Source of the DNA: Eledone cirrhosa
Lineage: Eukaryota
NCBI GenBank assembly: GCA_964016885.1
Contig: OZ024741.1
Coordinates: forward strand, 6,572,001 to 6,636,000
Direction of reading: 5' to 3'
Length of the DNA stretch: 64,000 nucleotides
A program made the translations under genes and the position numbers. Shown here piece after piece: positions 1 to 53,468 of this stretch; position 1 is the stretch's first letter, and each line of letters opens with the position of its first letter. The notes below the pieces were generated by a model. That model saw only the letters and a list, made by a program, of their open reading frames with translations, was not told where the DNA came from and ran no database searches.

Positions 1-706
1 ATAGTTGAAGACAGAGTACCTCAGACAATAGTTGAAGACAGAATACCTCAGACAATAGTTGAAGACAGAGTACCTCAGACAATAGTTGAAGACAGACTAC
101 CTCAGACAATAGTTGAAGACAGACTACCTCAGACAATAGTTGAAGACAGACTACCTCAGACAATAGTTGAAGACAGAGTACCTCAGACAATAGTTGAAGA
201 CAGAGTACCCCAGCCAATGAGAGACAGAATACCTCAGACAATTGTTGAAGACAGAGTACCTCAGACAATAGTTGAAGACAGAGTACCTCAGACAATAGTT
301 GAAGACAGAGTACCTCAGACAATAGTTGAAGACAGAGTACCTCAGACAATAGTTGAAGACAGAGTACCCCAGCCAATGAGAGACAGAATACCTCAGACAA
401 TAGTTGAAGACAGAGTACCTCAGACAATAGTTGAAGACAGAGTACCTCAGACAATAGTTGAAGACAGAGTACCTCAGACAATAGTTGAAGACAGTACCTC
501 AGACAATAGTTGAAGACAGTACCTCAGACAATAGTTGAAGACAGAGTACCTCAGACAATAGTTGAAGACAGAGTACCTCAGACAATAGCTGAAGACAGAG
601 TACCTCAGACAATAGCTGAAGACAGAGTACCTCAGACAATAGCTGAAGACGGAGTACCCCAGACAATAGTTGAAGACAGAGTACCTCAAACAATAGTTGA
701 AGACAG

Positions 707-1826
707 CACCTATTGTCCCAAATGCAAAGTATGGGTGCATAAAAGATGTAGTGGGATTACAGGTAAGCTAACTAAGAATATAGATTTTACATGTGGCCGG
801 TGCTCTGGTGCAATAAGTAGCAGCAAGTGCCCATAGAATACTAGCTGATTCCATTGCACAGATGGTTCTATAGAAATAGTGGACACCTTCCGTTACTTGG
901 GTGACAAAATCAGCAGTGGTGGAGGGTGCTCTAAAAGTACAGTAGCTAGAGTCAGAACTGGATGGAAAAAGTTCAGAGAGCTTATACCACTATTAGCCGC
1001 TAAAGGGTTCTCTCTAAAAATGAAAGGCAGGCTGTATGATGCCTGCATACGCACAGCAATGTTACATGGCAGGGAGACCCGGGCATTGTGTGCAGAGGAT
1101 ATACGTAGACTGGAGAGGAACGAAGCTTGCATGCTCCGCTGGATGTGTAATGGTAATATACGTGAACGGCAAAGCATAAACGAACTAAGGGAAAAATTAG
1201 AAATAAGAGGGATCAGATGTTGTTTACTCGAGAGAAGACTACGTTGGTAAGGTCACGTGATGCGCATGAAAGACGACAGCTGTATAAAAATGTGCAGGGC
1301 AATAAAAATAGACGGTAGTCACGGAGTAGGAAGACACAGAAAAACCTGGGACGACTTGATAAATTCCGACCCCACACACTTACACCTCTCCAAGACAATG
1401 TCACTGGACCGAGATCTTTGGCGCTACACAGTAATTCACCTAAGTACAAAGTGAAACCTACTACAGTCAGTAGGCACCTCTAACAAAAAAACACCCCTGT
1501 TCCACTACCCCCATTCCATCTACACCACCCCTTTCAATGTAAAGTTATGTTGGTACCACAACATCCAGTCCGAAACAAATGAGGTTTTGTAGGTGTCACG
1601 ACGAAAAAACACACAGTCCACGCTGTAATGTGGCCGTGTAGGTAACACGGTAAAAACCTCCCAGTCCAGACTGTAAACGTGGTTGGTGTTAGGAAGGGCA
1701 TCCAGCCGTAGAAAACCCGCCAGACAGTTCTATGCGAGCAAGACAACCACTCTTGCCTCAAGTGGGAAAACTCCCGTCCAAACCCATGCAAGCGTGGAAG
1801 ATGGACGTTAAACGATGATGATGATG
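707..1826 (+). mobile_element. RTE LINE 3' fragment copy 1 (haplotype A, 1120 bp), 5'-truncated, disrupted
   Basis: Encodes RT C-terminal motifs (FRYLGD, GWKKFRELIPLL, KGRLYDAC, GRHRKTW) broken by stops; ends GGACGTTAAAC(GAT)4; flanked by AATAGTTGA[A/T]GACAG. Confidence 0.93.
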
Positions 1827-4663
1827 AATAGTTGATGACAGAGTACCTCAGACAATAGTTGAAGACAGAGTACCCCAGCCAATAAGAGACAGAATACCTC
1901 AGACAATTGTTGAAGACAGAGTACCTCAGACAATAGTTGAAGACAGAGTACCTCAGACAATAGTTGAAGACAGAGTACCTCAGACAATAGTTGAAGACAG
2001 AATACCTCAGATAATAGTTGAAGACAGAATACCTCAGACATTAGTTGAAGACAGAGTACCTCAGACAATAGTTGAAGACAGAGTACCTCAGACAATAAGT
2101 GAAGACAGAGTACCTCAGACAATAGTTGAAGACAGAGTACCTCAGACATTAGTTGAAGACAGAGTACCTCAGACATTAGTTGAAGACAGAGTACCTCAGA
2201 CATTAGTTGAAGACAGAGTACCTCAGACAATAGTTGAAGACAGAGTACCTCAGACAATAGTTGAAGACAGAGTACCTCAGACAATAGTTGAAGACAGAGT
2301 ACCTCAGACAATAGTTGAAGACAGAGTACCCCAGCCAATGAGAGACAGAATACCTCAGATAATTGTTGAAGACAGTGTACCTCAGACAATAGTTGAAGAC
2401 TGAATACCTCAGACAATAGTTGAAGACAGAGTACCTCAGACAATAGTTGAAGACAGAGTACCTCAGACAATAGTTGAAGACAGAATACCTCAGACAATAG
2501 TTGAAGACAGAATACCTCAGACAATAGTTGAAGACAGAGTACCCCAGCCAATGAGAGACAGAATACCTCAGACAATTGTTGAAGACAGAATACCTCAGAC
2601 AATAGTTGAAGACAGAGTACCCCAGCCAATGAGAGACAGAATACCTCGGACAATTGTTGAAGACAGAATACCTCAAACAATAGTTGAAGACAGAGTACCT
2701 CAGACAATAGTTGAAGACAGAGTACCTCAGACAATAGTTGAAGACAGAGTACCTCAGACAATAGTTGAAGACAGAGTACCTCAGACAATAGTTGAAGACA
2801 GAATACCTCAGACAATGGTTGAAGACAGAGTACCTCAGACAATAGTTGAAGACAGAATACCTCAGACAATAGTTGAAGACAGAATACCTCAGACAATAGT
2901 TGAAGACAGAGTACCTCACACAATAGTTGAAGACAGAGTACCCCAGCCAATGAGAGACAGAATACCTCAGACAATAGTTGAAGACAGTACCTCAAACAAT
3001 AGTTGAAAACAGAGTACCTCAGACAATAGTTGAAAACAGAGTACCTCAGACAATAGTTTAAGACAGAGTACCTCAGACAATAGTTTAAGACAGAGTACCT
3101 CAGACAATAGTTTAAGACAGAGTACCCCAGCCAATGAGAGACAGAATACCTCAGACAATTGTTGAAGACAGTGTACCTCAGACAATAGTTTAAGACTGAA
3201 TACCTCAGACAATAGTTGAAGACAGAGTACCTCAGACAATAGTTGAAGACTGAATACCTCAGACAATAGTTGAAGACAAAGTACCTCAGATATTAGTTGA
3301 AGACAGAGTGCCTCAGACAATAGTTGAAGATAGAATACCTCAGACAATAGTTGAAGACTGAATACCTCAGACAATAGTTGAAGACAGAGTACCTCAGACA
3401 ATAGTTGAAGACAGAGTACCTCAGACAATAGTTGAAGACAGAATACCTCAGACAATAGTTGAAGACAGAATACCTCAGACAATAGTTGAAGACAGAGTAC
3501 CTCAGACAATAGTTGAAGACAGAGTACCCCCAGCCAATGAGAGACAGAATACCTTAGACAATAGTTGAAGTCAGACAATAGTTGAAGACAGAGTATCTCA
3601 GACATTAGTTGAAGACAGAGTACCTCAGACAATAGTTGAAGACAGAGTACCTCAGACAATAGTTGAAGACAGTGTACCTCAGACAATAGTTGAAGACAGA
3701 GTACCTCAGACAATAGTTGAAGACAGAGTACCTCAGACAATAGTTGAAGACAGAGTACCTCAGACAATAGTTGAAGACAGAGTACCCCAGCCAATGAGAG
3801 ACAGAATACCTCAGACAATTGTTGAAGACTGAATACCTCAGACAATGGTTGAAGACAGAGTACCTCAGACAATAGTTGAAGACTGAATACCTCAGACAAT
3901 AGTTGAAGACAGAATACCTCAGACAATAGTTGAAGACAGAGTACCTCAGACAATAGTTGATGACAGAATACCTCAGACAATAGTTGAAGACAAAGTACCT
4001 CAGACATTAGTTGAAGACAGAGTACCTCAGACAATAGTTGAAGACAGAATACCTCAGACAATAGTTGAAGACTGAATACCTCAGACAATAGTTGAAGACA
4101 GAGTACCTCAGACAATAGTTGAAGACAGAGTACCTCAGACAATAGTTGAAGACAGAGTACCCCAGACAATAGTTGAAGACAGAGTACCTCAGACAATAGT
4201 TGAAGACAGAGTACCTCAGACAATAGTTGAAGACAGAGTACCTCAGACAATAGTTGAAGACAGAGTACCCCAGCCAATGAGAGACAGAATACCTCAGACA
4301 ATAGTTGAAGACAGAGTACCTCAGACAATAGTTGAAGACTGAATACCTCAGACAATAGTTGAAGACAGAGTACCTCAGACAATAGTTGAAGACAGAATAC
4401 CTCAGACAATAGTTGAAGACAGAATACCTCAGACAATAGTTGAAGACAGAGTACCTCAGACAATAGTTGAAGACAGAGTACCCCCAGCCAATGAGAGACA
4501 GAATACCTTAGACAATAGTTGAAGACAGAGTACCTCAGACAATAGTTGAAGACAGAGTATCTCAGACATTAGTTGAAGACAGAGTACCTCTGACAATATT
4601 TGAAGACAGAGTACCTCAGACAATAGTTGAAGACAGAGTAACTCAAACAATAGTTGAAGACAG

Positions 4664-5799
4664 CACCTATTGTCCCAAATGCAAAGTATGGGTGCATAAA
4701 AGATGTAGTGGGATCACAGGTAAGCTAACTAAGAATATAGATTTTACATGTGGCCGGTGCTCTGGTGCAATAAGTAGCAGCAAGTGCCCATAGAATACTA
4801 GCTGATTCCATTGCACAGATGGTTCTATAGAAATAGTGGACACCTTCCGTTACTTGGGTGACAAAATCAGCAGTGGTGGAGGGTGCTCTAAAAGTACAGT
4901 AGCTAGAGTCAGAACTGGATGGAAAAAGTTCAGAGAGCTTATACCACTATTAGCCGCTAAAGGGTTCTCTCTAAAAATGAAAGGCAGGCTGTATGATGCC
5001 TGCATACGCACAGCAATGTTACATGGCAGGGAGACCCGGGCATTGTGTGCAGAGGATATACGTAGACTGGAGAGGAACGAAGCTTGCATGCTCCGCTGGA
5101 TGTGTAATAGTAATATACGTGAACGGCAAAGCATAAACGAACTAAGGGAAAAATTAGAAATAGAGGGATCAGATGTTGTTTACTCGAGAGAAGACTACGT
5201 TGGTAAGGTCACGTGATGCGCATGAAAGACGACAGCTGTATAAAAATGTGCAGGGCAATAAAAATAGACGGTAGTCACGGAGTAAGCAGACCCAGAAAAA
5301 CCTGGGACGACTTGATAAATTCCGACCTCACACACTTACACCTCTCCAAGACAATGTCACTGGACCGAGATCTTTGGTGCTACACAGTAATTCAGAAGAC
5401 CCGCCTTACCTAAGTATAAAGTGAAACCTACTACAGTCAGTAGGCACCTCTAACTAAAAAACACCTCTGTTCCACTACCCCCATTCCATCCACACCACCC
5501 CTTTCAATGTAAAGTTATGTTGGTACCACAACATCCAGTCCGAATAAAATGAGGTTGTGTAGGTGTCACGACGAAAAAACACACAGTCCACGCTGTAATG
5601 TGGCCGTGTAGGCAACACGGTAAAAACCTCCCAGTCCACACTGTAAACGTGGTTGGTGTTAGGAAGGGCATCCAGCCGTAGAAAACCCGCCAGACAGTCC
5701 TATGCGAGCAAGACAACCACTCTTGCCTAAAGTGGAAAAACTCCCGTCCAAACCCACTCAAGCGTGCAAGATGGACGTTAAACGATAATGATGATGATG
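4664..5799 (+). mobile_element. RTE fragment copy 2 (haplotype B, 1136 bp)
   Basis: Same junctions as copy 1; 1-bp deletion at GAAATAGAGG; retains the 14 bp AGAAGACCCGCCTT; tail GATAAT(GAT)3. Confidence 0.93.
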
Positions 5800-8700
5800 A
5801 ATAGTTGATGACAGAGTACCTCAGACAATAGTTGAAGACAGAGTACGTCAGACAATAGTTGAAGACAGAGTACCTCAGACAATAGTTGAAGACAGAGTAC
5901 CCCAGCCAATGAGAGACAGAATACCTCAGACAATAGTTGAAAACAGAGTACCTCAGACAATAGTTGAAAACAGAGTACCTCAGACATTAGTTGAAGACAG
6001 AGTACCTCAGACATTAGTTGAAGACAGAGTACCTCAGACATTAGTTGAAGACAGAGTACCTCAGACATTAGCTGAAGACAGAGTACCCCAGCCAATGAGA
6101 GACAGAATACCTCAGACAATTGTTGAAAACAGAGTACCTCAGACAATAGTTGAAAACAGAGTACCTCAGACATTAGTTGAAGACAGAGTACCTCAGACAT
6201 TAGTTGAAGACAGAGTACCTCAGACATTAGTTGAAGACAGAGTACCTCAGACATTAGCTGAAGACAGAGTACCCCAGCCAATGAGAGACAGAATACCTCA
6301 GACAATTGTTGAAGACTGAATACCTCAGACAATAGTTGAAGACAGAATACCTCAGACAATAGTTGAAGACAGAGTACCTCAGACAATAGTTGAAGACAGA
6401 ATACCTCAGACAATAGTTGAAGACAAAGTACCTCAGACATTAGTTGAAGACAGAGTACCTCAGACAATAGTTGAAGACAGAATACCTCAGACAATAGTTG
6501 AAGACTGAATACCTCAGACAATAGTTGAAGACAGAGTACCTCAGACAATAGTTGAAGACAGAATACCTCAGACATTAGTTGAAGACAGAGTACCTCAGAC
6601 ATTAGTTGAAGACAGAGTACCTCAGACAATAGTTTAAGACAGAGTACCCCAGCCAATGAGAGACAGAATACCTCAGACAATTGTTGAAGACTGAATACCT
6701 CAGACAATAGTTGAAGACACAATACCTCAGACAATAGTTGAAGACAGAGTACCTCAGACAATAGTTGAAGACAGAGTACCCCAGCCAATGAGAGACAGAA
6801 TACCTCAGACAATAGTTGAAAACGGAGTACCTCAGACAATAGTTGAAAACAGAGTACCTCAGACAATAGTTGAAAACAGAGTACCTCAGACATTAGTTGA
6901 AGACAGAGTACCTCAGACATTAGTTGAAGACAGAGTACCTCAGACAATAGTTTAAGACAGAGTACCCCAGCCAATGAGAGACAGAATACCTCAGACAATT
7001 GTTGAAGACTGAATACCTCAGACAATAGTTGAAGACAGAATACCTCAGACAATAGTTGAAGACAGAGTACCTCAGACAATAGTTGAAGACAGAATACCTC
7101 AGACAATAGTTGAAGACAAAGTACCTCAGACATTAGTTGAAGACAGAGTACCTCAGACAATAGTTGAAGACAGAATACCTCAGACAATAGTTGAAGACTG
7201 AATACCTCAGACAATAGTTGAAGACAGAGTACCTCAGACAATAGTTGAAGACAGAATACCTCAGACAATAGTTGAAGACAGAATACCTCAGACAATAGTT
7301 GAAGACAGAATACCTCAGACAATAGTTGAAGACAGAGTACCTCAGACAATAGTTGAAGACAGAGTACCTCAGACAATAGTTGAAGACAGAGTACCTCAGA
7401 CAATAGTTGAAGACAGAGTACCTCAGACAATAGTTGAAGACAGAGTACCTCAGACAATAGTTGAAGACAGAGTACCTCAGACAATAGTTGAAGACAGAGT
7501 ACCTCAGACAATAGTTGAAGACAGAGTACCTCAGACATTAGTTGAAGACAGAGTACCTCAGACATTAGTTGAAGACAGAGTACCTCAGACATTAGTTGAA
7601 GACAGAGTACCTCAGTCAATAGTTGAAGACAGAGTACCTCAGACAATAGTTGAAGACAGAGTACCTCAGACAATAGTTGAAGACAGAGTACCTCAGACAA
7701 TAGTTTAAGACAGAGTACCTCAGACAATAGTTTAAGACAGAGTACCCCAGCCAATGAGAGACAGAATACCTTAGACAATAGTTGAAGTCAGACAATAGTT
7801 GAAGACAGAGTATCTCAGACATTAGTTGAAGACAGAGTACCTCAGACAATAGTTGAAGACAGAGTACCTCAGACAATAGTTGAAGACAGTGTACCTCAGA
7901 CAATAGTTGAAGACAGAGTACCTCAGACAATAGTTGAAGACAGAGTACCTCAGACAATAGTTGAAGACAGAGTACCTCAGACAATAGTTGAAGACTGAAT
8001 ACCTCAGACAATAGTTGAAGACTGAATACCTCAGACAATAGTTGAAGACAAAGTACCTCAGATATTAGTTGAAGACAGAGTGCCTCAGACAATAGTTGAA
8101 GATAGAATACCTCAGACAATAGTTGAAGACTGAATACCTCAGACAATAGTTGAAGACAGAGTACCTCAGACAATAGTTGAAGACAGAGTACCTCAGACAA
8201 TAGTTGAAGACAGAATACCTCAGACAATAGTTGAAGACAGAATACCTCAGACAATAGTTGAAGACAGAGTACCTCAGACAATAGTTGAAGACAGAGTACC
8301 CCCAGCCAATGAGAGACAGAATACCTTAGACAATAGTTGAAGTCAGACAATAGTTGAAGACAGAGTATCTCAGACATTAGTTGAAGACAGAGTACCTCAG
8401 ACAATAGTTGAAGACAGAGTACCTCAGACAATAGTTGAAGACAGAGTACCCCAGACAATAGTTGAAGACAGAGTACCTCAGACAATAGTTGAAGACAGAG
8501 TACCTCAGACAATAGTTGAAGACAGAGTACCCCAGCCAATGAGAGACAGAATACCTCAGACAATAGTTGAAGACAGAGTACCTCAGACAATAGTTGAAGA
8601 CTGAATACCTCAGACAATAGTTGAAGACAGAGTACCTCAGACAATAGTTGAAGACAGAATACCTCAGACAATAGTTGAAGACAGAATACCTCAGACAATA

Positions 8701-9533
8701 GTTGAAGACAGAGTACCTCAGACAATAGTTGAAGACAGAGTACCCCCAGCCAATGAGAGACAGAGTACCTCAGACAATAGTTGAAGACAGAGTACCTCAG
8801 ACAATAGTTGAAGACAGAGTATCTCAGACATTAGTTGAAGACAGAGTACCTCAGACAATAGTTGAAGACAGAGTACCTCAGACAATAGTTGAAGACAGTG
8901 TACCTCAGACAATAGTTGAAGACAGAGTACCTCAGACAATAGTTGAAGACAGAGTACCTCAGACAATAGTTGAAGACAGAGTACCTCAGACAATAGTTGA
9001 AGACAGAGTACCCCAGCCAATGAGAGACAGAATACCTCAGACAATTGTTGAAGACTGAATACCTCAGACAATGGTTGAAGACAGAGTACCTCAGACAATA
9101 GTTGAAGACAGAGTACCCCAGCCAATGAGAGACAGAATACCTCAGACAATTGTTGAAGACAGAGTACCTCAGACAATAGTTGAAGACAGAGTACCTCAGA
9201 CAATAGTTGAAGACAGAGTACCTCAGACAATAGTTGAAGACAGAGTACCCCAGCCAATGAGAGACAGAATACCTCAGACAATAGTTGAAGACAGAGTACC
9301 TCAGACAATAGTTGAAGACAGAGTACCTCAGACAATAGTTGAAGACAGAGTACCTCAGACAATAGTTGAAGACAGTACCTCAGACAATAGTTGAAGACAG
9401 TACCTCAGACAATAGCTGAAGACAGAGTACCTCAGACAATAGCTGAAGACAGAGTACCTCAGACAATAGCTGAAGACGGAGTACCCCAGACAATAGTTGA
9501 AGACAGAGTACCTCAAACAATAGTTGAAGACAG

Positions 9534-10653
9534 CACCTATTGTCCCAAATGCAAAGTATGGGTGCATAAAAGATGTAGTGGGATTACAGGTAAGCTAACT
9601 AAGAATATAGATTTTACATGTGGCCGGTGCTCTGGTGCAATAAGTAGCAGCAAGTGCCCATAGAATACTAGCTGATTCCATTGCACAGATGGTTCTATAG
9701 AAATAGTGGACACCTTCCGTTACTTGGGTGACAAAATCAGCAGTGGTGGAGGGTGCTCTAAAAGTACAGTAGCTAGAGTCAGAACTGGATGGAAAAAGTT
9801 CAGAGAGCTTATACCACTATTAGCCGCTAAAGGGTTCTCTCTAAAAATGAAAGGCAGGCTGTATGATGCCTGCATACGCACAGCAATGTTACATGGCAGG
9901 GAGACCCGGGCATTGTGTGCAGAGGATATACGTAGACTGGAGAGGAACGAAGCTTGCATGCTCCGCTGGATGTGTAATGGTAATATACGTGAACGGCAAA
10001 GCATAAACGAACTAAGGGAAAAATTAGAAATAAGAGGGATCAGATGTTGTTTACTCGAGAGAAGACTACGTTGGTAAGGTCACGTGATGCGCATGAAAGA
10101 CGACAGCTGTATAAAAATGTGCAGGGCAATAAAAATAGACGGTAGTCACGGAGTAGGAAGACACAGAAAAACCTGGGACGACTTGATAAATTCCGACCCC
10201 ACACACTTACACCTCTCCAAGACAATGTCACTGGACCGAGATCTTTGGCACTACACAGTAATTCACCTAAGTACAAAGTGAAACCTACTACAGTCAGTAG
10301 GCACCTCTAACAAAAAAACACCCCTGTTCCACTACCCCCATTCCATCTACACCACCCCTTTCAATGTAAAGTTATGTTGGTACCACAACATCCAGTCCGA
10401 AACAAATGAGGTTTTGTAGGTGTCACGACGAAAAAACACACAGTCCACGCTGTAATGTGGCCGTGTAGGTAACACGGTAAAAACCTCCCAGTCCAGACTG
10501 TAAACGTGGTTGGTGTTAGGAAGGGCATCCAGCCGTAGAAAACCCGCCAGACAGTTCTATGCGAGCAAGACAACCACTCTTGCCTCAAGTGGGAAAACTC
10601 CCGTCCAAACCCATGCAAGCGTGGAAGATGGACGTTAAACGATGATGATGATG
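9534..10653 (+). mobile_element. RTE fragment copy 3 (haplotype A)
   Basis: Near-identical to copy 1, same junctions. Confidence 0.93.
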
Positions 10654-13461
10654 AATAGTTGATGACAGAGTACCTCAGACAATAGTTGAAGACAGAGTAC
10701 CCCAGCCAATAAGAGACAGAATACCTCAGACAATTGTTGAAGACAGAGTACCTCAGACAATAGTTGAAGACAGAGTACCTCAGACAATAGTTGAAGACAG
10801 AGTACCTCAGACAATAGTTGAAGACAGAATACCTCAGATAATAGTTGAAGACAGAATACCTCAGACATTAGTTGAAGACAGAGTACCTCAGACAATAGTT
10901 GAAGACAGAGTACCTCAGACAATAGGTGAAGACAGAGTACCTCAGACAATAGTTGAAGACAGAGTACCTCAGACATTAGTTGAAGACAGTACCTCAGACA
11001 TTAGTTGAAGACAGAGTACCTCAGTCAATAGTTGAAGACAGAGTACCTCAGACAATAGTTGAAGACAGAGTACCTCAGACAATAGTTGAAGACAGAGTAC
11101 CTCAGACAATAGTTGAAGACAGAGTACCCCAGCCAATGAGAGACAGAATACCTCAGATAATTGTTGAAGACAGTGTACCTCAGACAATAGTTGAAGACTG
11201 AATACCTCAGACAATAGTTGAAGACAGAGTACCTCAGACAATAGTTGAAGACAGAGTACCTCAGACAATAGTTGAAGACAGAATACCTCAGACAATAGTT
11301 GAAGACAGAATACCTCAGACAATAGTTGAAGACAGAATACCTCAGACAATAGTTGAAGACAGAGTACCCCAGCCAATGAGAGACAGAATACCTCAGACAA
11401 TTGTTGAAGACAGAATACCTCAGACAATAGTTGAAGACAGAGTACCCCAGCCAATGAGAGACAGAATACCTCGGACAATTGTTGAAGACAGAATACCTCA
11501 GACAATAGTTGAAGACAGAGTACCTCAGACAATAGTTGAAGACAGAGTACCTCAGACAATAGTTGAAGACAGAGTACCTCAGACAATAGTTGAAGACAGA
11601 ATACCTCAGACAATGGTTGAAGACAGAGTACCTCAGACAATAGTTGAAGACAGAATACCTCAGACAATAGTTGAAGACAGAATACCTCAGACAATAGTTG
11701 AAGACAGAATACCTCAGACAATAGTTGAAGACAGAGTACCTCACACAATAGTTGAAGACAGAGTACCCCAGCCAATGAGAGACAGAATACCTCAGACAAT
11801 AGTTGAAGACAGTACCTCAAACAATAGTTGAAAACAGAGTACCTCAGACAATAGTTGCAAACAGAGTACCTCAGACAATAGTTTAAGACAGAGTACCTCA
11901 GACAATAGTTTAAGACAGAGTACCTCAGACAATAGTTTAAGACAGAGTACCCCAGCCAATGAGAGACAGAATACCTCAGACAATTGTTGAAGACAGTGTA
12001 CCTCAGACAATAGTTTAAGACTGAATACCTCAGACAATAGTTGAAGACAGAGTACCTCAGACAATAGTTGAAGACTGAATACCTCAGACAATAGTTGAAG
12101 ACAAAGTACCTCAGATATTAGTTGAAGACAGAGTGCCTCAGACAATAGTTGAAGATAGAATACCTCAGACAATAGTTGAAGACTGAATACCTCAGACAAT
12201 AGTTGAAGACAGAGTACCTCAGACAATAGTTGAAGACAGAGTACCTCAGACAATAGTTGAAGACAGAATACCTCAGACAATAGTTGAAGACAGAATACCT
12301 CAGACAATAGTTGAAGACAGAGTACCTCAGACAATAGTTGAAGACAGAGTACCCCCAGCCAATGAGAGACAGAATACCTTAGACAATAGTTGAAGTCAGA
12401 CAATAGTTGAAGACAGAGTATCTCAGACATTAGTTGAAGACAGAGTACCTCAGACAATAGTTGAAGACAGAGTACCTCAGACAATAGTTGAAGACAGTGT
12501 ACCTCAGACAATAGTTGAAGACAGAGTACCTCAGACAATAGTTGAAGACAGAGTACCTCAGACAATAGTTGAAGACAGAGTACCTCAGACAATAGTTGAA
12601 GACAGAGTACCCCAGCCAATGAGAGACAGAATACCTCAGACAATTGTTGAAGACTGAATACCTCAGACAATGGTTGAAGACAGAGTACCTCAGACAATAG
12701 TTGAAGACTGAATACCTCAGACAATAGTTGAAGACAGAATACCTCAGACAATAGTTGAAGACAGAGTACCTCAGACAATAGTTGATGACAGAATACCTCA
12801 GACAATAGTTGAAGACAAAGTACCTCAGACATTAGTTGAAGACAGAGTACCTCAGACAATAGTTGAAGACAGAATACCTCAGACAATAGTTGAAGACTGA
12901 ATACCTCAGACAATAGTTGAAGACAGAGTACCTCAGACAATAGTTGAAGACAGAGTACCTCAGACAATAGTTGAAGACAGAGTACCCCAGACAATAGTTG
13001 AAGACAGAGTACCTCAGACAATAGTTGAAGACAGAGTACCTCAGACAATAGTTGAAGACAGAGTACCCCAGCCAATGAGAGACAGAATACCTCAGACAAT
13101 AGTTGAAGACAGAGTACCTCAGACAATAGTTGAAGACTGAATACCTCAGACAATAGTTGAAGACAGAGTACCTCAGACAATAGTTGAAGACAGAATACCT
13201 CAGACAATAGTTGAAGACAGAATACCTCAGACAATAGTTGAAGACAGAGTACCTCAGACAATAGTTGAAGACAGAGTACCCCCAGCCAATGAGAGACAGA
13301 GTACCTCAGACAATAGTTGAAGACAGAGTACCTCAGACAATAGTTGAAGACAGAGTATCTCAGACATTAGTTGAAGACAGAGTACCTCTGACAATATTTG
13401 AAGACAGAGTACCTCAGACAATAGTTGAAGACAGAGTAACTCAAACAATAGTTGAAGACAG

Positions 13462-17500: not shown

Positions 17501-18092
17501 CAGAATACCTCAGACAATAGTTGAAGACTGAATACCTCAGACAATAGTTGAAGACAGAGTACCTCAGACAATAGTTGAAGACAGAGTACCTCAGACAATA
17601 GTTGAAGACAGAGTACCCCAGACAATAGTTGAAGACAGAGTACCTCAGACAATAGTTGAAGACAGAGTACCTCAGACAATAGTTGAAGACAGAGTACCCC
17701 AGCCAATGAGAGACAGAATACCTCAGACAATAGTTGAAGACAGAGTACCTCAGACAATAGTTGAAGACTGAATACCTCAGACAATAGTTGAAGACAGAGT
17801 ACCTCAGACAATAGTTGAAGACAGAATACCTCAGACAATAGTTGAAGACAGAATACCTCAGACAATAGTTGAAGACAGAGTACCTCAGACAATAGTTGAA
17901 GACAGAGTACCCCCAGCCAATGAGAGACAGAGTACCTCAGACAATAGTTGAAGACAGAGTACCTCAGACAATAGTTGAAGACAGAGTATCTCAGACATTA
18001 GTTGAAGACAGAGTACCTCTGACAATATTTGAAGACAGAGTACCTCAGACAATAGTTGAAGACAGAGTAACTCAAACAATAGTTGAAGACAG

Positions 18093-42512: not shown

Positions 42513-43600
42513 CACCTATTGTCCCAAATGCAAAGTATGGGTGCATAAAAGATGTAGTGGGATCACAGGTAAGCTAACTAAGAATATAGATTTTACATGT
42601 GGCCGGTGCTCTGGTGCAATAAGTAGCAGCAAGTGCCCATAGAATACTAGCTGATTCCATTGCACAGATGGTTCTATAGAAATAGTGGACACCTTCCGTT
42701 ACTTGGGTGACAAAATCAGCAGTGGTGGAGGGTGCTCTAAAAGTACAGTAGCTAGAGTCAGAACTGGATGGAAAAAGTTCAGAGAGCTCATACCACTATT
42801 AGCCGCTAAAGGGTTCTCTCTAAAAATGAAAGGCAGGCTGTATGATGCCTGCATACGCACAGCAATGTTACATGGCAGGGAGACCCGGGCATTGTGTGCA
42901 GAGGATATACGTAGACTGGAGAGGAACGAAGCTTGCATGCTCCGCTGGATGTGTAATAGTAATATACGTGAACGGCAAAGCATAAACGAACTAAGGGAAA
43001 AATTAGAAATAGAGGGATCAGATGTAGTTTACTCGAGAGAAGACTACGTTGGTAAGGTCACGTGATGCGCATGAAAGACGACAGCTGTATAAAAATGTGC
43101 AGGGCAATAAAAATAGACGGTAGTCACGGAGTAAGCAGACCCAGAAAAACCTGGGACGACTTGATAAATTCCGACCTCACACATTTACACCTCTCCAAGA
43201 CAATGTCACTGGACCGAGATCTTTGGTGCTACACAGTAATTCAGAAGACCCGCCTTACCTAAGTATAAAGTGAAACCTACTACAGTCAGTAGGCACCTCT
43301 AACTAAAAAACACCTCTGTTCCACTACCCCCATTCCATCCACACCACCCCTTTCAATGTAAAGTTATGTTGGTACCACAACATCCAGTCCGAATAAAATG
43401 AGGTTGTGTAGGTGTCACGACGAAAAAACACACAGTCCACACTGTAAACGTGGTTGGTGTTAGGAAGGGCATCCAGCCGTAGAAAACCCGCCAGACAGTC
43501 CTATGCGAGCAAGACAACCACTCTTGCCTAAAGTGGAAAAACTCCCGTCCAAACCCACTCAAGCGTAGAAGATGGACGTTAAACGATAATGATGATGATG
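42513..43600 (+). mobile_element. RTE fragment copy 12 (haplotype B with a 48-bp 3'UTR deletion, 1088 bp)
   Basis: Deletion between two CAGTCCAC direct repeats at ~43440; several private SNPs. Confidence 0.93.
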
Positions 43601-46600
43601 AATAGTTGATGACAGAGTACCTCAGCCAATGAGAGACAGAATACCTCAGACAATAGTTGAAGACAGAGTACCTCAGACAATAGTTGAAGACAGAGTACCC
43701 CAGCCAATGAGAGACAGAATACCTCAGACAATAGTTGAAGACAGAGTACCTCAGACAATAGTTGAAAACAGAGTACCTCAGACAATAGTTGAAAACAGAG
43801 TACCTCAGACAATAGTTTAAGACAGAGTACCCCAGCCAATGAGAGACAGAATACCTCAGACAATTGTTGAAGACTGAATACCTCAGACAATAGTTGAAGA
43901 CAGAATACCTCAGACAATAGTTGAAGACAGAGTACCTCAGACAATAGTTGAAGACAGAATACCTCAGACAATAGTTGAAGACAAAGTACCTCAGACATTA
44001 GTTGAAGACAGAGTACCTCAGACAATAGTTGAAGACAGAATACCTCAGACAATAGTTGAAGACTGAATACCTCAGACAATAGTTGAAGACAGAGTACCTC
44101 AGACAATAGTTGAAGACAGAATACCTCAGACAATAGTTGAAGACAGAATACCTCAGACAATAGTTGAAGACAGAATACCTCAGACAATAGTTGAAGACAG
44201 AGTACCTCAGACAATAGTTGAAGACAGAGTACCTCAGACAATAGTTGAAGACAGAGTACCTCAGACAATAGTTGAAGACAGAGTACCTCAGACAATAGTT
44301 GAAGACAGAGTACCTCAGACAATAGTTGAAGACAGAGTACCTCAGACATTAGTTGAAGACAGAGTACCTCAGACATTAGTTGAAGACAGAGTACCTCAGA
44401 CATTAGTTGAAGACAGAGTACCTCAGTCAATAGTTGAAGACAGAGTACCTCAGACAATAGTTGAAGACAGAGTACCTCAGACAATAGTTGAAGACAGAGT
44501 ACCTCAGACAATAGTTGAAGACAGAGTACCTCAGACAATAGTTGAAGACAGAGTACCTCAGACAATAGTTGAAGACAGAGTACCTCAGACAATAGTTGAA
44601 GACAGAGTACCCCAGCCAATGAGAGACAGAATACCTCACACAATTGTTGAAGACAGTGTACCTCAGACAATAGTTGAAGACTGAATACCTCAGACAATAG
44701 TTGAAGACAGAGTACCTCAGACAATAGTTGAAGACAGAATACCTCAGACAATAGTTGAAGACAGAGTACCCCAGCCAATGAGAGACAGAATACCTCAGAC
44801 AATTGTTGAAGACAGAATACCTCAGACAATAGTTGAAGACAGAGTACCCCAGCCAATGAGAGACAGAATACCTCGGACAATTGTTGAAGACAGAATACCT
44901 CAAACAATAGTTGAAGACAGAGTACCTCAGACAATAGTTGAAGACAGAGTACCTCAGACAATAGTTGAAGAAGAGTACCTCAGACAATAGTTGAAGACAG
45001 AGTACCTCAGACAATAGTTGAAGACAGAGTACCTCAGACAATAGTTGAAGACAGAGTACCTCAGACAATAGTTGAAGACAGAATACCTCAGACAATGGTT
45101 GAAGACAGAGTACCTCAGACAATAGTTGAAGACAGAATACCTCAGACAATAGTTGAAGACAGAATACCTCAGACAATAGTTGAAGACAGAGTACCTCACA
45201 CAATAGTTGAAGACAGAGTACCCCAGCCAATGAGAGACAGAATACCTCAGACAATAGTTGAAGACAGTACCTCAAACAATAGTTGAAAACAGAGTACCTC
45301 AGACAATAGTTGAAAACAGAGTACCTCAGACAATAGTTGAAGACAGAGTACCTCAGACAATAGTTTAAGACAGAGTACCTCAGACAATAGTTTAAGACAG
45401 AGTACCCCAGCCAATGAGAGACAGAATACCTCAGACAATTGTTGAAGACAGTGTACCTCAGACAATAGTTGAAGACTGAATACCTCAGACAATAGTTGAA
45501 GACAGAGTACCTCAGACAATAGTTGAAGACTGAATACCTCAGACAATAGTTGAAGACAAAGTACCTCAGATATTAGTTGAAGACAGAGTACCTCAGACAA
45601 TAGTTGAAGATAGAATACCTCAGACAATAGTTGAAGACTGAATACCTCAGACAATAGTTGAAGACAGAATACCTCAGACAATAGTTGAAGACAGAATACC
45701 TCAGACAATAGTTGAAGACAGAATACCTCAGACAATAGTTGAAGACAGAATACCTCAGACAATAGTTGAAGACAGAGTACCTCAGACAATAGTTGAAGAC
45801 AGAGTACCCCAGCCAATGAGAGACAGAATACCTTAGACAATAGTTGAAGTCAGAGTACCTCAGACAATAGTTGAAGACAGAGTATCTCAGACATTAGTTG
45901 AAGACAGAGTACCTCAGACAATAGTTGAAGACAGAGTACCTCAGACAATAGTTGAAGACAGTGTACCTCAGACAATAGTTGATGACAGAGTACCTCAGAC
46001 AATAGTTGAAGACAGAGTACCTCAGACAATAGTTGAAGACAGAGTACCTCAGACAATAGTTGAAGACAGAGTACCTCAGACAATAGTTGAAGACAGAGTA
46101 CCCCAGCCAATGAGAGACAGAATACCTCAGACAATTGTTGAAGACTGAATACCTCAGACAATAGTTGAAGACAGAGTACCTCAGACAATAGTTGAAGACT
46201 GAATACCTCAGACAATAGTTGAAGACAGAATACCTCAGACAATAGTTGAAGACAGAGTACCTCAGACAATAGTTGATGACAGAATACCTCAGACAATAGT
46301 TGAAGACAAAGTACCTCAGACATTAGTTGAAGACAGAGTACCTCAGACAATAGTTGAAGACAGAATACCTCAGACAATAGTTGAAGACTGAATACCTCAG
46401 ACAACAGTTGAAGACAGAGTACCTCAGACAATAGTTGAAGACAGAGTACCCCAGACAATAGTTGAAGACAGAGTACCCCAGACAATAGTTGAAGACAGAG
46501 TACCTCAGACAATAGTTGAAGACAGAGTACCTCAGACAATAGTTGAAGACAGAGTACCTCAGACAATAGTTGAAGACAGAGTACCTCAGACATTAGTTGA

Positions 46601-47974
46601 AGACAGAGTACCTCAGACATTAGTTGAAGACAGAGTACCTCAGTCAATAGTTGAAGACAGAGTACCTCAGTCAATAGTTGAAGACAGAGTACCTCAGACA
46701 ATAGTTGAAGACAGAGTACCTCAGACAATAGTTGAAGACAGAGTACCTCAGACAATAGTTGAAGACAGAGTACCTCAGACAATAGTTGAAGACAGAGTAC
46801 CTCAGACAATAGTTGAAGACAGAGTACCTCAGACAATAGTTGAAGACAGAGTACCCCAGCCAATGAGAGACAGAATACCTCAGACAATTGTTGAAGACAG
46901 TGTACCTCAGACAATAGTTGAAGACTGAATACCTCAGACAATAGTTGAAGACAGAGTACCTCAGACAATAGTTGAAGACAGAGTACCTCAGACAATAGTT
47001 GAAGACAGAATACCTCAGACAATAGTTGAAGACAGAGTACCCCAGCCAATGAGAGACAGAATACCTTAGACAATAGTTGAAGACAGAGTACCTCAGACAA
47101 TAGTTGAAGACAGAGTACCTCAGACAATAGTTGAAGACAGAGTATCTCAGTCATTAGTTGAAGACAGAGTACCTCAAACAATAGTTGAAGACAGAGTACC
47201 TCTGACAATAGTTGAAGACAGAGTACCTCAGACAATAGTTGAAGACAGAGTACCCCAGCCAATAAGAGACAGAATACCTCAGACAATTGTTGAAGACAGA
47301 GTACCTCAGACAATAGTTGAAGACAGAGTACCTCAGACAATAGTTGAAGACAGAGTACCTCAGACAATAGTTGAAGACAGAGTACCTCAGACAATAGTTG
47401 AAGACAGAGTACCTCAGACAATAGTTGAAGACAGAGTACCTCAGACAATAGTTGAAGACAGAGTACCTCAGACAATAGTTGAAGACAGAATACCTCAGAT
47501 AATAGTTGAAGACAGAATACGTCAGACATTAGTTGAAGACAGAGTACCTCAGACAATAGTTGAAGACAGAATACCTCAGACAATAGTTGAAGACAGAGTA
47601 CCTCAGACAATAGTTGAAGACAGAGTACCTCAGACAATAGTTGAAGACAGAGTACCTCAGACAATAGTTGAAGACAGAGTACCTCAGACAATAGTTGAAG
47701 ACAGAGTACCCCAGACAATAGTTGAAGACAGAGTACCCCAGACAATAGTTGAAGACAGAGTACCCCAGACAATAGTTGAAGACAGAGTACCCCAGACAAT
47801 AGTTGAAGACAGAGTACCTCAGACAATAGTTGAAGACAGAGTACCTCAGACAATAGTTGAAGACAGAGTACCTCTGACAATAGTTGAAGACAGAGTACCT
47901 CTGACAATAGTTGAAGACAGAGTACCTCAGACAATAGTTGAAGACAGAGTAACTCAAACAATAGTTGAAGACAG

Positions 47975-49093
47975 CACCTATTGTCCCAAATGCAAAGTAT
48001 GGGTGCATAAAAGATGTAGTGGGATCACAGGTAAGCTAACTAAGAATATAGATTTTACATTTGGCCGGTGCTCTGGTGCAATAAGTAGCAGCAAGTGCCC
48101 ATAGAATACTAGCTGATTCCATTGCACAGATGGTTCTATAGAAATAGTGGACACCTTCCGTTACTTGGGTGACAAAATCAGCAGTGGTGGAGGGTGCTCT
48201 AAAAGTACAGTAGCTAGAGTCAGAACTGGATGGAAAAAGTTCAGAGAGCTTATACCACTATTAGCCGCTAAAGGGTTCTCTCTAAAAATGAAAGGCAGGC
48301 TGTATGATGCCTGCATACGCACAGCAATGTTACATGGCAGGGAGACCCGGGCATTGTGTGCAGAGGATATACGTAGACTGGAGAGGAACGAAGCTTGCAT
48401 GCTCCGCTGGATGTGTAATAGTAATATACGTGAACGGCAAAGCATAAACGAACTAAGGGAAAAATTAGAAATAGAGGGATCAGATGTTGTTTACTCGAGA
48501 GAAGACTACGTTGGTAAGGTCACGTGATGCGCATGAAAGACGACAGCTGTATAAAAATGTGCAGGGCAATAAAAATAGACGGTAGTCACGGAGTAAGCAG
48601 ACCCAGAAAAACCTGGGACGACTTGATAAATTCCGACCTCACACACTTACACCACTCCAAGACAATGTCACTGGACCGAGATCTTTGGCGCTACACAGTA
48701 ATTCACCTAAGTACAAAGTGAAACCTACTACGGTCAGTAGGCACCTCTAACCAATAAACACCCCTGTTCCACTACCCCCGTTCCATCCACACCACCCCTT
48801 TCAATGTAAAGTTATGTTGGTACCACAACATCCAGTCCGAAACAAATGAGGTTTTGTAGGTGTCACGACGAAAAAACACACAGTCCACGCTGTAATGTGG
48901 CCGTGTAGGCAACACGGTAAAAACCTCCCAGTCCAGACTGTAAACGTGGTTGGTGTTAGGAAGGGCATCCAGCCGTAGAAAACCCGCCAGACAGTCCTAT
49001 GCGAGCAAGACAACCACTCTTGCCTCAAGTGGGAAAACTCCCGTCCAAACCCATGCAAGCGTGGAAGATGGACGTTAAACGATGATGATGATG
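47975..49093 (+). mobile_element. RTE fragment copy 13 (A/B mosaic, 1119 bp)
   Basis: Carries the B 1-bp deletion together with the A 14-bp deletion and A tail; several private SNPs. Confidence 0.92.
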
Positions 49094-52000
49094 AATAGTT
49101 GATGACAGAGTACCTCAGACAATAGTTGAAGACAGAGTACCCCAGCCAATGAGAGACAGAATACCTCAGACAATAGTTGAAGACAGAGTACCTCAGACAA
49201 TAGTTGAAAACAGAGTACCTCAGACAATAGTTGAAAACAGAGTACCTCAGACATTAGTTGAAGACAGAGTACCTCAGACATTAGTTGAAGACAGAGTACC
49301 TCAGACAATAGTTTAAGACAGAGTACCCCAGCCAATGAGAGACAGAATACCTCAGACAATTGTTGAAGACAGTGTACCTCAGACAATAGTTGAAGACTGA
49401 ATACCTCAGACAATAGTTGAAGACAGAATACCTCAGACAATAGTTGAAGACAGAGTACCTCAGACAATAGCTGAAGACAGAATACCTCAGACAATAGTTG
49501 AAGACAAAGTACCTCAGACAATAGTTGAAGACTGAATACCTCAGACAATAGTTGAAGACAGAGTACCTCAGACAATAGTTGAAGACAGAATACCTCAGAC
49601 AATAGTTGAAGACAGAATACCTCAGACAATAGTTGAAGACAGAGTACCTCAGACAATAGTTGAAGACAGAGTACCTCAGACAATAGTTGAAGACAGAGTA
49701 CCTCAGACAATAGTTGAAGACAGAGTACCTCAGACAATAGTTGAAGACAGAGTACCTCAGACAATAGTTGAAGACAGAGTACCTCAGACAATAGTTGAAG
49801 ACAGAGTACCTCAGACAATAGTTGAAGACAGAGTACCTCAGACAATAGTTGAAGACAGAGTACCTCAGACAATAGTTGAAGACAGAGTACCCCAGCCAAT
49901 GAGAGACAGAATACCTCAGACAATTGTTGAAGACAGTGTACCTCAGACAATAGTTGAAGACTGAATACCTCAGACAATAGTTGAAGACAGTACCTCAGAC
50001 AATAGTTGAAGACAGAGTACCTCAGACAATAGTTGAAGACAGAGTACCTCAGACAATAGTTGAAGACAGAGTACCTCAGACAATAGTTGAAGACAGAGTA
50101 CCTCAGACAATAGTTGAAGACAGAGTACCTCAGACAATAGTTGAAGACAGAGTACCCCAGCCAATGAGAGACAGAATACCTTAGACAATAGTTGAAGACA
50201 GAGTACCTCAGTCAATAGTTGAAGACAGAGTACCTCAGACAATAGTTGAAGACAGAGTACCTCAGACAATAGTTGAAGACAGAGTACCTCAGACAATAGT
50301 TGAAGACAGAGTACCCCAGCCAATGAGAGACAGAATACCTCAGACAATAGTTGAAGACAGAGTACCTCAGACAATAGTTGAAGACAGAGTACCTCAGACA
50401 ATAGTTGAAGACAGAGTACCTCAGACAATAGTTGAAGACAGAGTACCTCAGACAATAGTTGAAGACAGAATACCTCAGACAATGGTTGAAGACAGAGTAT
50501 CTCAGACAATAGTTGAAGACAGAATACCTCAGACAATAGTTGAAGACAGAATACCTCAGACAATAGTTGAAGACAGAATACCTCAGACAATAGTTGAAGA
50601 CAGAGTACCTCACACAATAGTTGAAGACAGAGTACCCCAGCCAATGAGAGACAGAATACCTCAGACAATAGTTGAAGACAGTACCTCAAACAATAGTTGA
50701 AAACAGAGTACCTCAGACAATAGTTGAAAACAGAGTACTTCAGACATTAGTTGAAGACAGTACCTCAGACAATAGTTGAAGACAGTACCTCAGACAATAG
50801 TTGAAGACAGAGTACCCCAGCCAATGAGAGACAGAATACCTCAGACAATTGTTGAAGACAGTGTACCTCAGACAATAGTTGAAGACTGAATACCTCAGAC
50901 AATAGTTGAAGACAGAGTACCTCAGACAATAGTTGAAGACTGAATACCTCAGACAATAGTTGAAGACAAAGTACCTCAGATATTAGTTGAAGACAGAATA
51001 CCTCAGACAATAGTTGAAGACAGAATACCTCAGACAATAGTTGAAGACAGAATACCTCAGACAATAGTTGAAGACAGAGTACCTCACACAATAGTTGAAG
51101 ACAGAGTACCCCAGCCAATGAGAGACAGAATACCTCAGACAATAGTTGAAGACAGTACCTCAAACAATAGTTGAAAACAGAGTACCTCAGACAATAGTTG
51201 AAAACAGAGTACTTCAGACATTAGTTGAAGACAGTACCTCAGACAATAGTTGAAGACAGTACCTCAGACAATAGTTGAAGACAGAGTACCCCAGCCAATG
51301 AGAGACAGAATACCTCAGACAATTGTTGAAGACAGTGTACCTCAGACAATAGTTGAAGACTGAATACCTCAGACAATAGTTGAAGACAGAGTACCTCAGA
51401 CAATAGTTGAAGACTGAATACCTCAGACAATAGTTGAAGACAAAGTACCTCAGATATTAGTTGAAGACAGAGTACCTCAGACAATAGTTGAAGATAGAAT
51501 ACCTCAGACAATAGTTGAAGACTGAATACCTCAGACAATAGTTGAAGACAGAGTACCTCAGACAATAGTTGAAGACAGAATACCTCAGACAATAGTTGAA
51601 GACAGAATACCTGACAATAGTTGAAGACAGAGTACCTCAGACAATAGTTGAAGACAGAGTACCCCCAGCCAATGAGAGACAGAATACCTTAGACAATAGT
51701 TGAAGACAGAGTATCTCAGACATTAGTTGAAGACTGAATACCTCAGACAATAGTTGAAGACAGAGTACCTCAGACAATAGTTGAAGACTGAATACCTCAG
51801 ACAATAGTTGAAGACAAAGTACCTCAGATATTAGTTGAAGACAGAGTACCTCAGACAATAGTTGAAGATAGAATACCTCAGACAATAGTTGAAGACTGAA
51901 TACCTCAGACAATAGTTGAAGACAGAGTACCTCAGACAATAGTTGAAGACAGAATACCTCAGACAATAGTTGAAGACAGAATACCTGACAATAGTTGAAG

Positions 52001-53468
52001 ACAGAGTACCTCAGACAATAGTTGAAGACAGAGTACCCCAGCCAATGAGAGACAGAATACCTCAGACAATTGTTGAAGACAGTGTACCTCAGACAATAGT
52101 TGAAGACTGAATACCTCAGACAATAGTTGAAGACAGAGTACCTCAGACAATAGTTGAAGACTGAATACCTCAGACAATAGTTGAAGACAAAGTACCTCAG
52201 ATATTAGTTGAAGACAGAGTACCTCAGACAATAGTTGAAGACAGAGTACCTCAGACAATAGTTGAAGACAGTGTACCTCAGACAATAGTTGATGACAGAG
52301 TACCTCAGACAATAGTTGAAGACAGAGTACCTCAGACAATAGTTGAAGACAGAGTACCTCAGACAATAGTTGAAGACAGAGTACCTCAGACAATAGTTGA
52401 AGACAGAGTACCCCAGCCAATGAGAGACAGAATACCTCAGACAATTGTTGAAGACTGAATACCTCAGACAATAGTTGAAGACAGAGTACCTCAGACAATA
52501 GTTGAAGACAGAGTACCTCAGACAATAGTTGAAGACAGAATACCTCAGACAATAGTTGAAGACAGAGTACCTCAGACAATAGTTGAAGACAAAGTACCTC
52601 AGACATTAGTTGAAGACAGAGTACCTCAGACAATAGTTGAAGACAGAGTACCTCAGACAATAGTTGAAGACAGAGTACCCCAGCCAATGAGAGACAGAGT
52701 ACCTCAGACAATAGTTGAAGACAGAGTACCTCAGACAATAGTTGAAGACAAAGTACCTCAGACATTAGTTGAAGACAGAGTACCTCAGACAATAGTTGAA
52801 GACAGAGTACCTCAGACAATAGTTGAAGACAGAGTACCTCAGACAATGAGAGACAGAATACCTCAGACAATAGTTGAAGACAGAGTACCTCAGACAATAG
52901 TTGAAGACAGCGTACCTCAGACATTAGTTGAAGACAGAGTACCTCAGACAATAGTTGAAGACAGAGTACCTCAGACATTAGTTGAAGACAGAGTACCTCA
53001 GACATTAGTTGAAGACAGAATACCTCAGACAATAGTTGAAGACAGAGTACCTCAGACAATAGTTGAAGACAGAGTACCTCAGACAATAGTTGAAGACAGA
53101 GTACCTCAGACAATAGTTGAAGACAGAATACCTCAGACAATAGTTGAAGACAGTATCTCAGACAATAGTTGAAGACAGAGTACCTCAGACAATAGTTGAA
53201 GACAGAGTACCTCAGACAATAGTTGAAGACAGAGTACCTCAGACAATAGTTGAAGACAGAGTACCCCAGCCAATGAGAGACAATACCTCAGACAATTGTT
53301 GAAGACAGAGTACCTCAGACAATAGTTGAAGACTGAATACCTCAGACAATAGTTGAAGACAAAGTACCTCAGACAATAGTTGAAGACAGTTCCCTCACGT
53401 TACCTTTCTCTCCTTTTTCCCTTCATTTTCTCCCATCTTTGTCTCCCTTTCGTTATCTACTTTATTAT

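What the first reader, a model, noticed from the sequence alone, without database searches (positions are those of the whole stretch)
1..53397. Minisatellite-LINE composite macrosatellite: one dead RTE insertion co-amplified at least 13 times
Seen: all 13 fragments share orientation, the 5' junction (GAAGACAG|CACCTATTGT), the 3' junction and the same lesions relative to the family member at 61137-63194 (TAG after KCP, a TGA just after it, ETW>ETR, WY>W*). They are separated by 1.35-4.4 kb of 27-mers. Inference: a single insertion decayed first and was then amplified by unequal exchange or segmental duplication as part of a multi-kb higher-order repeat. This resembles satellite/retroelement mosaics of centromeric or heterochromatic domains, but no function can be shown from sequence.
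Basis: partly seen in the sequence, partly recalled or inferred. Interest (0 to 1): 0.75.

Follow-up and report, generated by a model that had tools for sequence, protein, structure and literature searches.

The report
Dead LINE multiplied inside gene intron
One broken piece of a jumping gene sits in 13 near-identical copies inside a 54-kb block of short repeats that fills most of one intron of an intact octopus housekeeping gene; it was most likely multiplied passively as the repeat block expanded, a process already known from human satellite DNA.

Summary
A 53.7-kb array of 27-bp repeats carries 13 same-strand, 5'-truncated fragments (1.09-1.14 kb) of an RT/PHD LINE. All 13 share both junctions and the named lesions. 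The junction and a word spanning two stop codons each occur exactly 13 times in the 3.0-Gb assembly, all here. The copies form one clade (100/100) against 21 dispersed relatives, so this is one insertion copied at the DNA level. The history has stages: a shared stem of 18 substitutions, three lineages 1.4-2.1% apart (one a recombinant), then a recent burst that includes a 7,045-bp exact duplication. Contig depth in one public run indicates roughly 14-24 junctions per diploid, against gross over-assembly. The 27-mer is confined to this locus, and the array fills 78% of the 68.7-kb intron 2 of an intact UPRT gene (215 of 221 residues identical to an Octopus vulgaris protein). Best reading: a neutral passenger in an expanding intronic minisatellite, like the L1HS duplications in human D2Z1 and the amplified Alu insertions in Yq12. 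It is a clean new instance of a known process.

The parts
1..53389 (+). Composite array: 1,473 monomers of a 27-bp minisatellite in 14 blocks plus 13 LINE fragments (14,655 bp, 27%). It begins 343 bases before the window (total 53.7 kb).
707..1826 (+). LINE fragment c1, lineage A (14-bp deletion)
4664..5799 (+). LINE fragment c2, lineage B (1-bp frameshift)
9534..10653 (+). LINE fragment c3, lineage A
13462..14597 (+). LINE fragment c4, lineage B
18093..19228 (+). LINE fragment c5, lineage B (identical to c7)
20580..21715 (+). LINE fragment c6, lineage B (identical to c4, c8, c10)
25519..26654 (+). LINE fragment c7, lineage B
28006..29141 (+). LINE fragment c8, lineage B
32084..33203 (+). LINE fragment c9, lineage A (identical to c3)
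35960..37095 (+). LINE fragment c10, lineage B
39223..40358 (+). LINE fragment c11, lineage B
42513..43600 (+). LINE fragment c12, lineage B, with a private 48-bp deletion
47975..49093 (+). LINE fragment c13, lineage C: B-like 5' part and 5' flank, A-like 3' part and 3' flank (likely recombinant)
16756..31226 (+). Youngest tandem duplication: 16756-23800 is identical to 24182-31226 (7,045 bp, offset 7,426), carrying c5+c6 and c7+c8
1..64000 (+). The whole window lies inside intron 2 (68,721 bp, window-relative -2960 to 65760, GT-AG) of a UPRT homologue; the LINE fragments are in the gene's sense orientation
61137..63196 (-). Separate dispersed member of the same LINE family (RVT_1 + PHD finger, frameshifted), about 10% from the family majority state; not part of the array

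Best explanation
Thirteen copies of one 5'-truncated, inactivated LINE fragment lie in a single-locus 27-bp minisatellite inside intron 2 of an intact UPRT gene, and they were most likely multiplied as neutral passengers by repeated unequal exchanges within the array. Steps: (1) a LINE inserted once into the minisatellite (single origin shown; target-primed insertion inferred from the 5' truncation and (ATG)n tail). (2) It gathered 18 substitutions, three of them stop codons, before the surviving copies diverged (shown; that these arose after insertion is inferred). (3) An early duplication gave lineages A and B, each with its own flanking monomer variants, and a crossover within the LINE likely gave c13. 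(4) Nested multi-kb duplications of unequal length then raised the count to 13, several very recently (structure shown; unequal sister-chromatid or homologue exchange inferred). The intron is predicted to be spliced normally, so the array would have no function of its own.
For: Genome-wide exact counts: the junction 30-mer 13 of 13 here, the TAG+TGA 28-mer 13 of 13 here, although a family word occurs at least 3,992 times (the count may be capped). One clade, 100/100, against 21 dispersed copies. 18 substitutions shared by all 13; 9 of them are seen in none of the 21. In c1-c12 the LINE lineage matches both flanking monomer types in 12 of 12 copies. Exact shared stretches of 7,045, 2,997, 2,419 and 2,219 bp span LINE plus minisatellite at different offsets. 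c13 matches B at 7 of 7 sites on the left and A at 14 of 18 on the right (Fisher p=0.0007, split point chosen after looking). Rare monomers are 21 of 366 in the three outer blocks against 9 of 1,107 inside, as expected when exchange homogenises the centre. The 27-mer is single-locus: 186 of 186 dimers and 174 of 174 of a variant 23-mer. The host gene is intact: 221 codons, six GT-AG introns, 215 of 221 identical to P0122. Junction contig depth 130.8 against 18.5 and 8-9 in the unique flank of the same run.
Against: Neutrality is inferred, not measured: no RNA run was available for the locus. Sequence alone cannot separate unequal crossover from replication-based template switching. The 7,045-bp duplication has no differences, so two of the 13 copies could be an assembly duplication. 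The target-site duplication is ambiguous: 14 of 15 bases match, but a deletion gives the same phase in a tandem target. The run used for depth may be the assembly's own sample, and contig depth is a coarse measure. The 20 fetched dispersed copies were the best-scoring of 40 scored among 6,331 candidates. Such high co-amplification is not common in this family: 0 runs of three or more among the first 100 listed sites.
Confidence: 0.8

Rival explanations
1. The copies arose by replication-based amplification (template switching, break-induced replication or re-integration of a circle) rather than by unequal crossover; still a passenger.
For: Head-to-tail copies in one orientation and a recent burst: the eight core B copies differ by 0.93 substitutions on average.
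Against: Units have many lengths and are nested, three lineages are interleaved, and one copy is recombinant. This rules out one rolling-circle event but not repeated template switches.
Confidence: 0.1
2. The array affects the host gene: 13 sense-strand LINE 3' ends would add polyadenylation and splice-donor-like signals, or slow transcription, so that copy number tunes UPRT output.
For: The array holds 23 of the 34 AATAAA words of intron 2, all in the LINE fragments, and each of the three lineages has 2-3 GTRAG words. It makes up 78% of the intron.
Against: The coding sequence and splice sites are intact. Such words are common in introns (established knowledge). Other large, unrelated minisatellites lie in intron 1 and on both sides of the gene.
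Confidence: 0.06
3. The array is a centromeric or constitutive-heterochromatin satellite/retroelement domain.
For: The architecture resembles mobile-element duplications in human alpha satellite and Yq12. The region is rich in tandem repeats.
Against: The monomer is at one locus only; the array is 54 kb, lies inside a gene, and sits 6.6 Mb from the start of a 416-Mb contig.
Confidence: 0.02
4. Most of the 13 copies are an assembly over-expansion.
For: A 7,045-bp exact duplication and several identical copies.
Against: Three lineages 1.4-2.1% apart are interleaved. Junction depth is 7 times the homozygous flank depth and about 15 times the heterozygous one; the assembled array predicts 76-99 on one homologue and 165-215 on both, and 130.8 was seen.
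Confidence: 0.01
5. A sequence-specific LINE inserted 13 times independently at the same monomer position.
For: All copies share target phase and orientation.
Against: Identical 5' truncation point, shared stop codons private to the array, one clade, co-duplicated flanks. The dispersed relatives sit mostly beside AT-rich microsatellites, not in this 27-mer.
Confidence: 0.01

Closest known systems
L1HS duplications in human D2Z1 alpha satellite and amplified Alu insertions in Yq12 (PMC11451754, passages)
   Same: One retroelement insertion in a tandem array, later copied with its surroundings; the paper says most such elements are duplications of one element.
   Different: Those arrays are centromeric or heterochromatic and far larger, with about three L1HS per D2Z1 array. 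Here there are 13 copies in 54 kb (27% of the array) inside a gene intron.
Human DYZ2/HSat1B unit (bioRxiv 10.1101/2022.12.01.518658, passages)
   Same: A simple-repeat part of variable length joined to a 5'-truncated retroelement, repeated in tandem, more diverged at the array edges.
   Different: DYZ2 has a near-fixed 2.4-kb unit, a third component, large arrays and relatives on other chromosomes. Here the unit is not fixed and the array is single-locus.
T2T composite repeats / macrosatellites (bioRxiv 10.1101/2021.07.12.451456, passages)
   Same: Tandem multi-kb units of TE plus satellite, mostly on one chromosome, attributed to unequal crossing over.
   Different: Defined as three or more repeat components per unit; this has two, and spacers vary from 1.35 to 4.4 kb.
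5'-truncated R2 copies duplicated by crossover in Drosophila rDNA (PMC3542110, passages)
   Same: A shared 5' truncation marks copies made by recombination, the same logic used here.
   Different: R2 is site-specific and is rarely duplicated (335 of 386 single-copy, maximum four), which that paper models with selection against inserted units. Thirteen copies here fit an unconstrained array.
Octopus RTE LINEs, e.g. RTE-2_OV (PMC9115989, passages and supplements)
   Same: RT followed by a zinc finger; an abundant LINE in an octopus genome.
   Different: The paper calls its finger C2H2, while Pfam calls this one PHD. No sequence match could be tested, so identity with RTE-2_OV is not shown.

Membership tests
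Retroelement insertion co-amplified in a tandem array (D2Z1/Yq12/R2 type) | Copies share both junctions and the 5' truncation point | tested here: met
   13 of 13; junction found nowhere else in the assembly
Retroelement insertion co-amplified in a tandem array (D2Z1/Yq12/R2 type) | Copies form one clade against dispersed family members | tested here: met
   100/100 against 21 dispersed copies
Retroelement insertion co-amplified in a tandem array (D2Z1/Yq12/R2 type) | Flanking array sequence is duplicated together with the element | tested here: met
   Exact matches up to 7,045 bp across LINE and minisatellite; flank variants match LINE lineage in 12 of 12 of c1-c12
Composite repeat (T2T definition) | Unit made of three or more repeat components | tested here: not met
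   Two components only: 27-mer and LINE fragment; definition
Composite repeat (T2T definition) | Units arranged in a tandem array, usually on one chromosome | tested here: met
Regular higher-order repeat / macrosatellite | A fixed-length unit repeated with high identity | tested here: not met
   Spacers 1,351-4,374 bp; offsets of exact matches vary (2,487, 4,631, 7,426, 8,825 and others); only a loose A-B dimer recurs three times
Centromeric satellite | Abundant monomer in large arrays, typically on many chromosomes | tested here: not met
   186 of 186 dimers and 174 of 174 variant 23-mers at one 54-kb locus; exact words only, so diverged relatives could be missed
Centromeric satellite | CENP-A chromatin | not testable with these tools
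   No chromatin data
RTE-clade LINE | Non-LTR reverse transcriptase | tested here: met
   RVT_1, E=4.8e-26, in the family member at 62099-63097; RT+PHD relatives in many animals
RTE-clade LINE | 3' end in a microsatellite-like tail | tested here: met
   (ATG)n in the array and in the dispersed copies; feature described in PMC6007223
RTE-clade LINE | Target-site duplication of about 7-15 bp | tested here: inconclusive
   15-bp phase repeat with 14 of 15 matches, not separable from a deletion; only 1 of 16 assessable dispersed copies gave a candidate of 10 bp or more outside an AT microsatellite
RTE-clade LINE | Single ORF with endonuclease, and placement in the RTE clade of an RT tree | not tested
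Exon-derived 'mirage' minisatellite | Monomer resembles a neighbouring exon or splice junction | tested here: not met
   Best match to the seven UPRT exons reached by 292 of 1,000 shuffles

The most novel reading that the evidence does not exclude
A dead LINE gained a second route of multiplication inside a housekeeping gene, and its 13 sense-strand 3' ends make a length-polymorphic intronic array that tunes UPRT expression through premature polyadenylation or slowed transcription. Depth between the one-homologue and two-homologue expectations hints that the two homologues differ in copy number.
Probability: 0.07. Interest if true: 0.65.

Novelty: new member of a known kind. Interest (0 to 1): 0.33.

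Why it matters
The 13 LINE copies act as dated markers in a minisatellite whose history could not otherwise be read. They show an intron growing from about 15 kb to 69 kb through nested duplications, part of it very recently, while the gene stays intact. This is a concrete example of how octopus introns can swell without new transposition. It is also a caution for TE age landscapes, because such copies look like a young LINE subfamily that never transposed. The mechanism itself is known from human satellites and Drosophila rDNA.

Tried and rejected
Coding repeat: one + frame of the 27-mer is open, but 54 of 1,473 monomers have frame-breaking lengths and LINE stops interrupt it. Origin of the 27-mer from UPRT exons: 292 of 1,000 shuffles did as well; from the LINE locus L029: 19 of 300 shuffles did as well. 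Expression: no RNA holder listed, which is no evidence either way. Runs X4, X5, X6 and X21 did not cover the junction or the unique flank, so no second individual could be typed. Target-site duplications in dispersed copies were mostly unreadable. The protein atlas gave no result for the RT. A search of 8 supplementary files of PMC9115989 for family motifs found none; files 5-8 were not searched and may hold the RTE-2_OV sequence. Supplements of the two bioRxiv preprints were not available and may list closer two-component cases. Literature searches for minisatellites in octopus introns and for LINE fragments amplified with satellites listed no description of this locus; the library lacks most subscription journals. 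Look-ups of earlier findings near this place and by words returned nothing.
Full report
OBSERVATION. The window is G000:C2:6572001-6636000 in a 3.0-Gb assembly; contig C2 is 416 Mb. A 27-bp minisatellite runs from 343 bases before the window to 53389. It holds 1,473 monomers of 79 kinds in 14 blocks. Thirteen LINE fragments of 1,088-1,136 bp interrupt it, all on the + strand, and make up 14,655 bp or 27% of the array. Each starts at the same junction and ends in an (ATG)n tail. The spacers are 1,351-4,374 bp.

THE ELEMENT. The family member at 61137-63196 (- strand) encodes RVT_1 (E=4.8e-26) followed by a PHD finger, and RT+PHD relatives occur in many animals. The fragments cover the PHD finger, the end of the ORF and the 3' UTR. 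A family 26-mer occurs at least 3,992 times in the assembly (2,000 on one strand looks like a cap). The label RTE fits the microsatellite tail described in PMC6007223 (passages), but I did not test the clade with a tree.

SINGLE ORIGIN. The junction 30-mer and a 28-mer spanning the two stop codons each occur exactly 13 times in the assembly, all in this array. I aligned the 13 copies with 21 dispersed relatives: the 20 best non-array loci (40 of 6,331 candidates were scored) plus the window's own copy. The 13 form one side of a branch with support 100/100. They share 18 substitutions against the dispersed majority state, 9 of them seen in none of the 21. The TAG is in 1 of 21 dispersed copies and the TGA, ETR and W* changes in 0 of 21. 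Independent site-specific insertions are therefore rejected. The minisatellite stops at monomer position 15 before the LINE and restarts at position 1 after it, with 14 of 15 bases matching. This fits a 15-bp target-site duplication, but a deletion gives the same phase, and the first 7 bases of the fragment do not match the family. Only 1 of 16 assessable dispersed copies gave a duplication candidate of 10 bp or more outside an AT microsatellite, so this point stays open.

STAGED AMPLIFICATION. The copies fall into lineage A (c1, c3, c9), lineage B (c2, c4-c8, c10-c12) and c13. A and B differ by 2.1%, c13 by 1.4% and 1.7% from them; within A or B the differences are 0-5 substitutions. The order along the array is A B A B B B B B A B B B C. 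In c1-c12 the LINE lineage matches the monomer variants on both sides in 12 of 12 copies, so LINE and minisatellite were copied together. Exact repeats of 7,045, 2,997, 2,419 and 2,219 bp occur at different offsets, so there is no fixed unit, only a loose A-B dimer seen three times. Copy c13 matches B at 7 of 7 sites left of column 700 and A at 14 of 18 sites to the right (p=0.0007, split chosen after looking), and its flanks switch the same way. It is likely a crossover product. Rare monomers are 21 of 366 in the three outer blocks and 9 of 1,107 inside, the edge pattern that PMC12692304 describes for homogenised arrays (passages). With the rate quoted in PMC13282606 (JC 0.09 = 25 My; first third of the text read), the insertion is roughly 8 My old, the A/B split roughly 3 My and the B burst roughly 0.1 My. 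These dates borrow a rate from another species and are only indicative.

IS THE COPY NUMBER REAL? In run X1 a contig spans the 5' junction at depth 130.8. Contigs on the unique flank have depth 18.5 in one part and 8-9 in others, which I read as homozygous and heterozygous. The assembled array predicts a mean word multiplicity of 8.9 or 11.6 for that contig, depending on the path, which gives 76-99 for one homologue and 165-215 for both. The observed depth lies between, or about 14-24 junctions per diploid. This argues against gross over-assembly. It cannot confirm exactly 13: the tool warns that contig depth is not a copy number, X1 may be the assembly's own sample, and the 7,045-bp exact duplication could still be an artefact worth two copies.

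SETTING. All 186 perfect 27-mer dimers and all 174 copies of a variant 23-mer in the assembly are at this locus. A Pfam scan of 121 of 234 unmasked open frames in the window and its 60-kb flanks found one non-transposon hit, a UPRTase exon. That exon is 98% identical to an Octopus vulgaris protein and 96% to a cuttlefish one. The protein maps to seven + strand exons on both sides of the array. They give 221 codons without a stop, 215 identical residues and six GT-AG introns of 11,883, 68,721, 1,994, 4,789, 1,266 and 194 bp. The array fills 78% of intron 2, with the LINE pieces in the sense direction. Unrelated arrays of 61-, 41-, 32-, 45- and 50-bp units lie nearby, from 1.3 kb to at least 32 kb long. 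This is a minisatellite-rich genic region, not the multi-locus satellite expected of a centromere. Among the first 100 listed family sites on C1 there was no same-strand run of three or more within 10-kb steps, so 13 copies is unusual for this family, on a small sample.

MECHANISM. Shown: one insertion, shared decay, DNA-level co-duplication with flanking monomers, nested units, intronic position, intact host reading frame. Inferred: target-primed insertion, unequal exchange as the copying process, normal splicing and neutrality. The array holds 23 of the intron's 34 AATAAA words, which keeps a regulatory effect open, but no RNA evidence was available.

COMPARISON. PMC11451754 reports that most mobile elements in D2Z1 are duplications of one element and that four Alu insertions in Yq12 were later amplified (passages). 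The DYZ2 unit joins a variable simple repeat to a 5'-truncated Alu (10.1101/2022.12.01.518658, passages). T2T composites are tandem units of three or more components attributed to unequal crossing over (10.1101/2021.07.12.451456, passages); this array has two components, so it works like them without meeting the definition. Truncated R2 copies in rDNA are duplicated the same way but rarely (PMC3542110, passages). My searches listed no description of this locus.

VERDICT. The feature is real and the single-insertion reading is well supported. The centromeric analogy is not. It is a new, unusually clear instance of a known process, placed in a gene intron. Interest 0.33.

Noticed in passing
L010-L012, window-relative 91635 to at least 124000: A 50-bp tandem array of at least 32 kb starts about 17 kb past the UPRT stop codon and runs off the fetched sequence.
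   Followed up: no
L003-L002, window-relative -28376 to -15731: A 12.6-kb array of about 61-bp units ends about 0.7 kb before the first UPRT coding exon.
   Followed up: no
L001 (window-relative -6820 to -5731 and -2273 to -608); window 59006-59359: 48-bp and 61-bp arrays that overlap stretches similar to the dispersed LINE loci, likely grown from the LINE 3' UTR.
   Followed up: partly
window 54971-57955 and 63623 onward: Two more unrelated minisatellites (32-bp, 93 copies; 40-bp, 23 copies) in the same intron.
   Followed up: no
L006:3526-8755: A long LINE of another kind with frames of 590, 538 and 447 aa (RVT_1 and zf-RVT), apparently young.
   Followed up: no
L004:785-2123: PIF1 helicase fragments, probably from a Helitron.
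   Followed up: no
window 53380-53400 and the 343 bases before the window: Both array ends carry monomers with TTCCC where the common unit has TACCT, possibly a trace of the seed sequence.
   Followed up: no
LINE alignment columns 700-1170: Lineage B has 10 private changes in the 3' part and none in the first 700 columns, which may record an older exchange with a lost array copy.
   Followed up: partly
L023-L042: Most dispersed family copies sit next to (AT)n or (AC)n microsatellites.
   Followed up: partly
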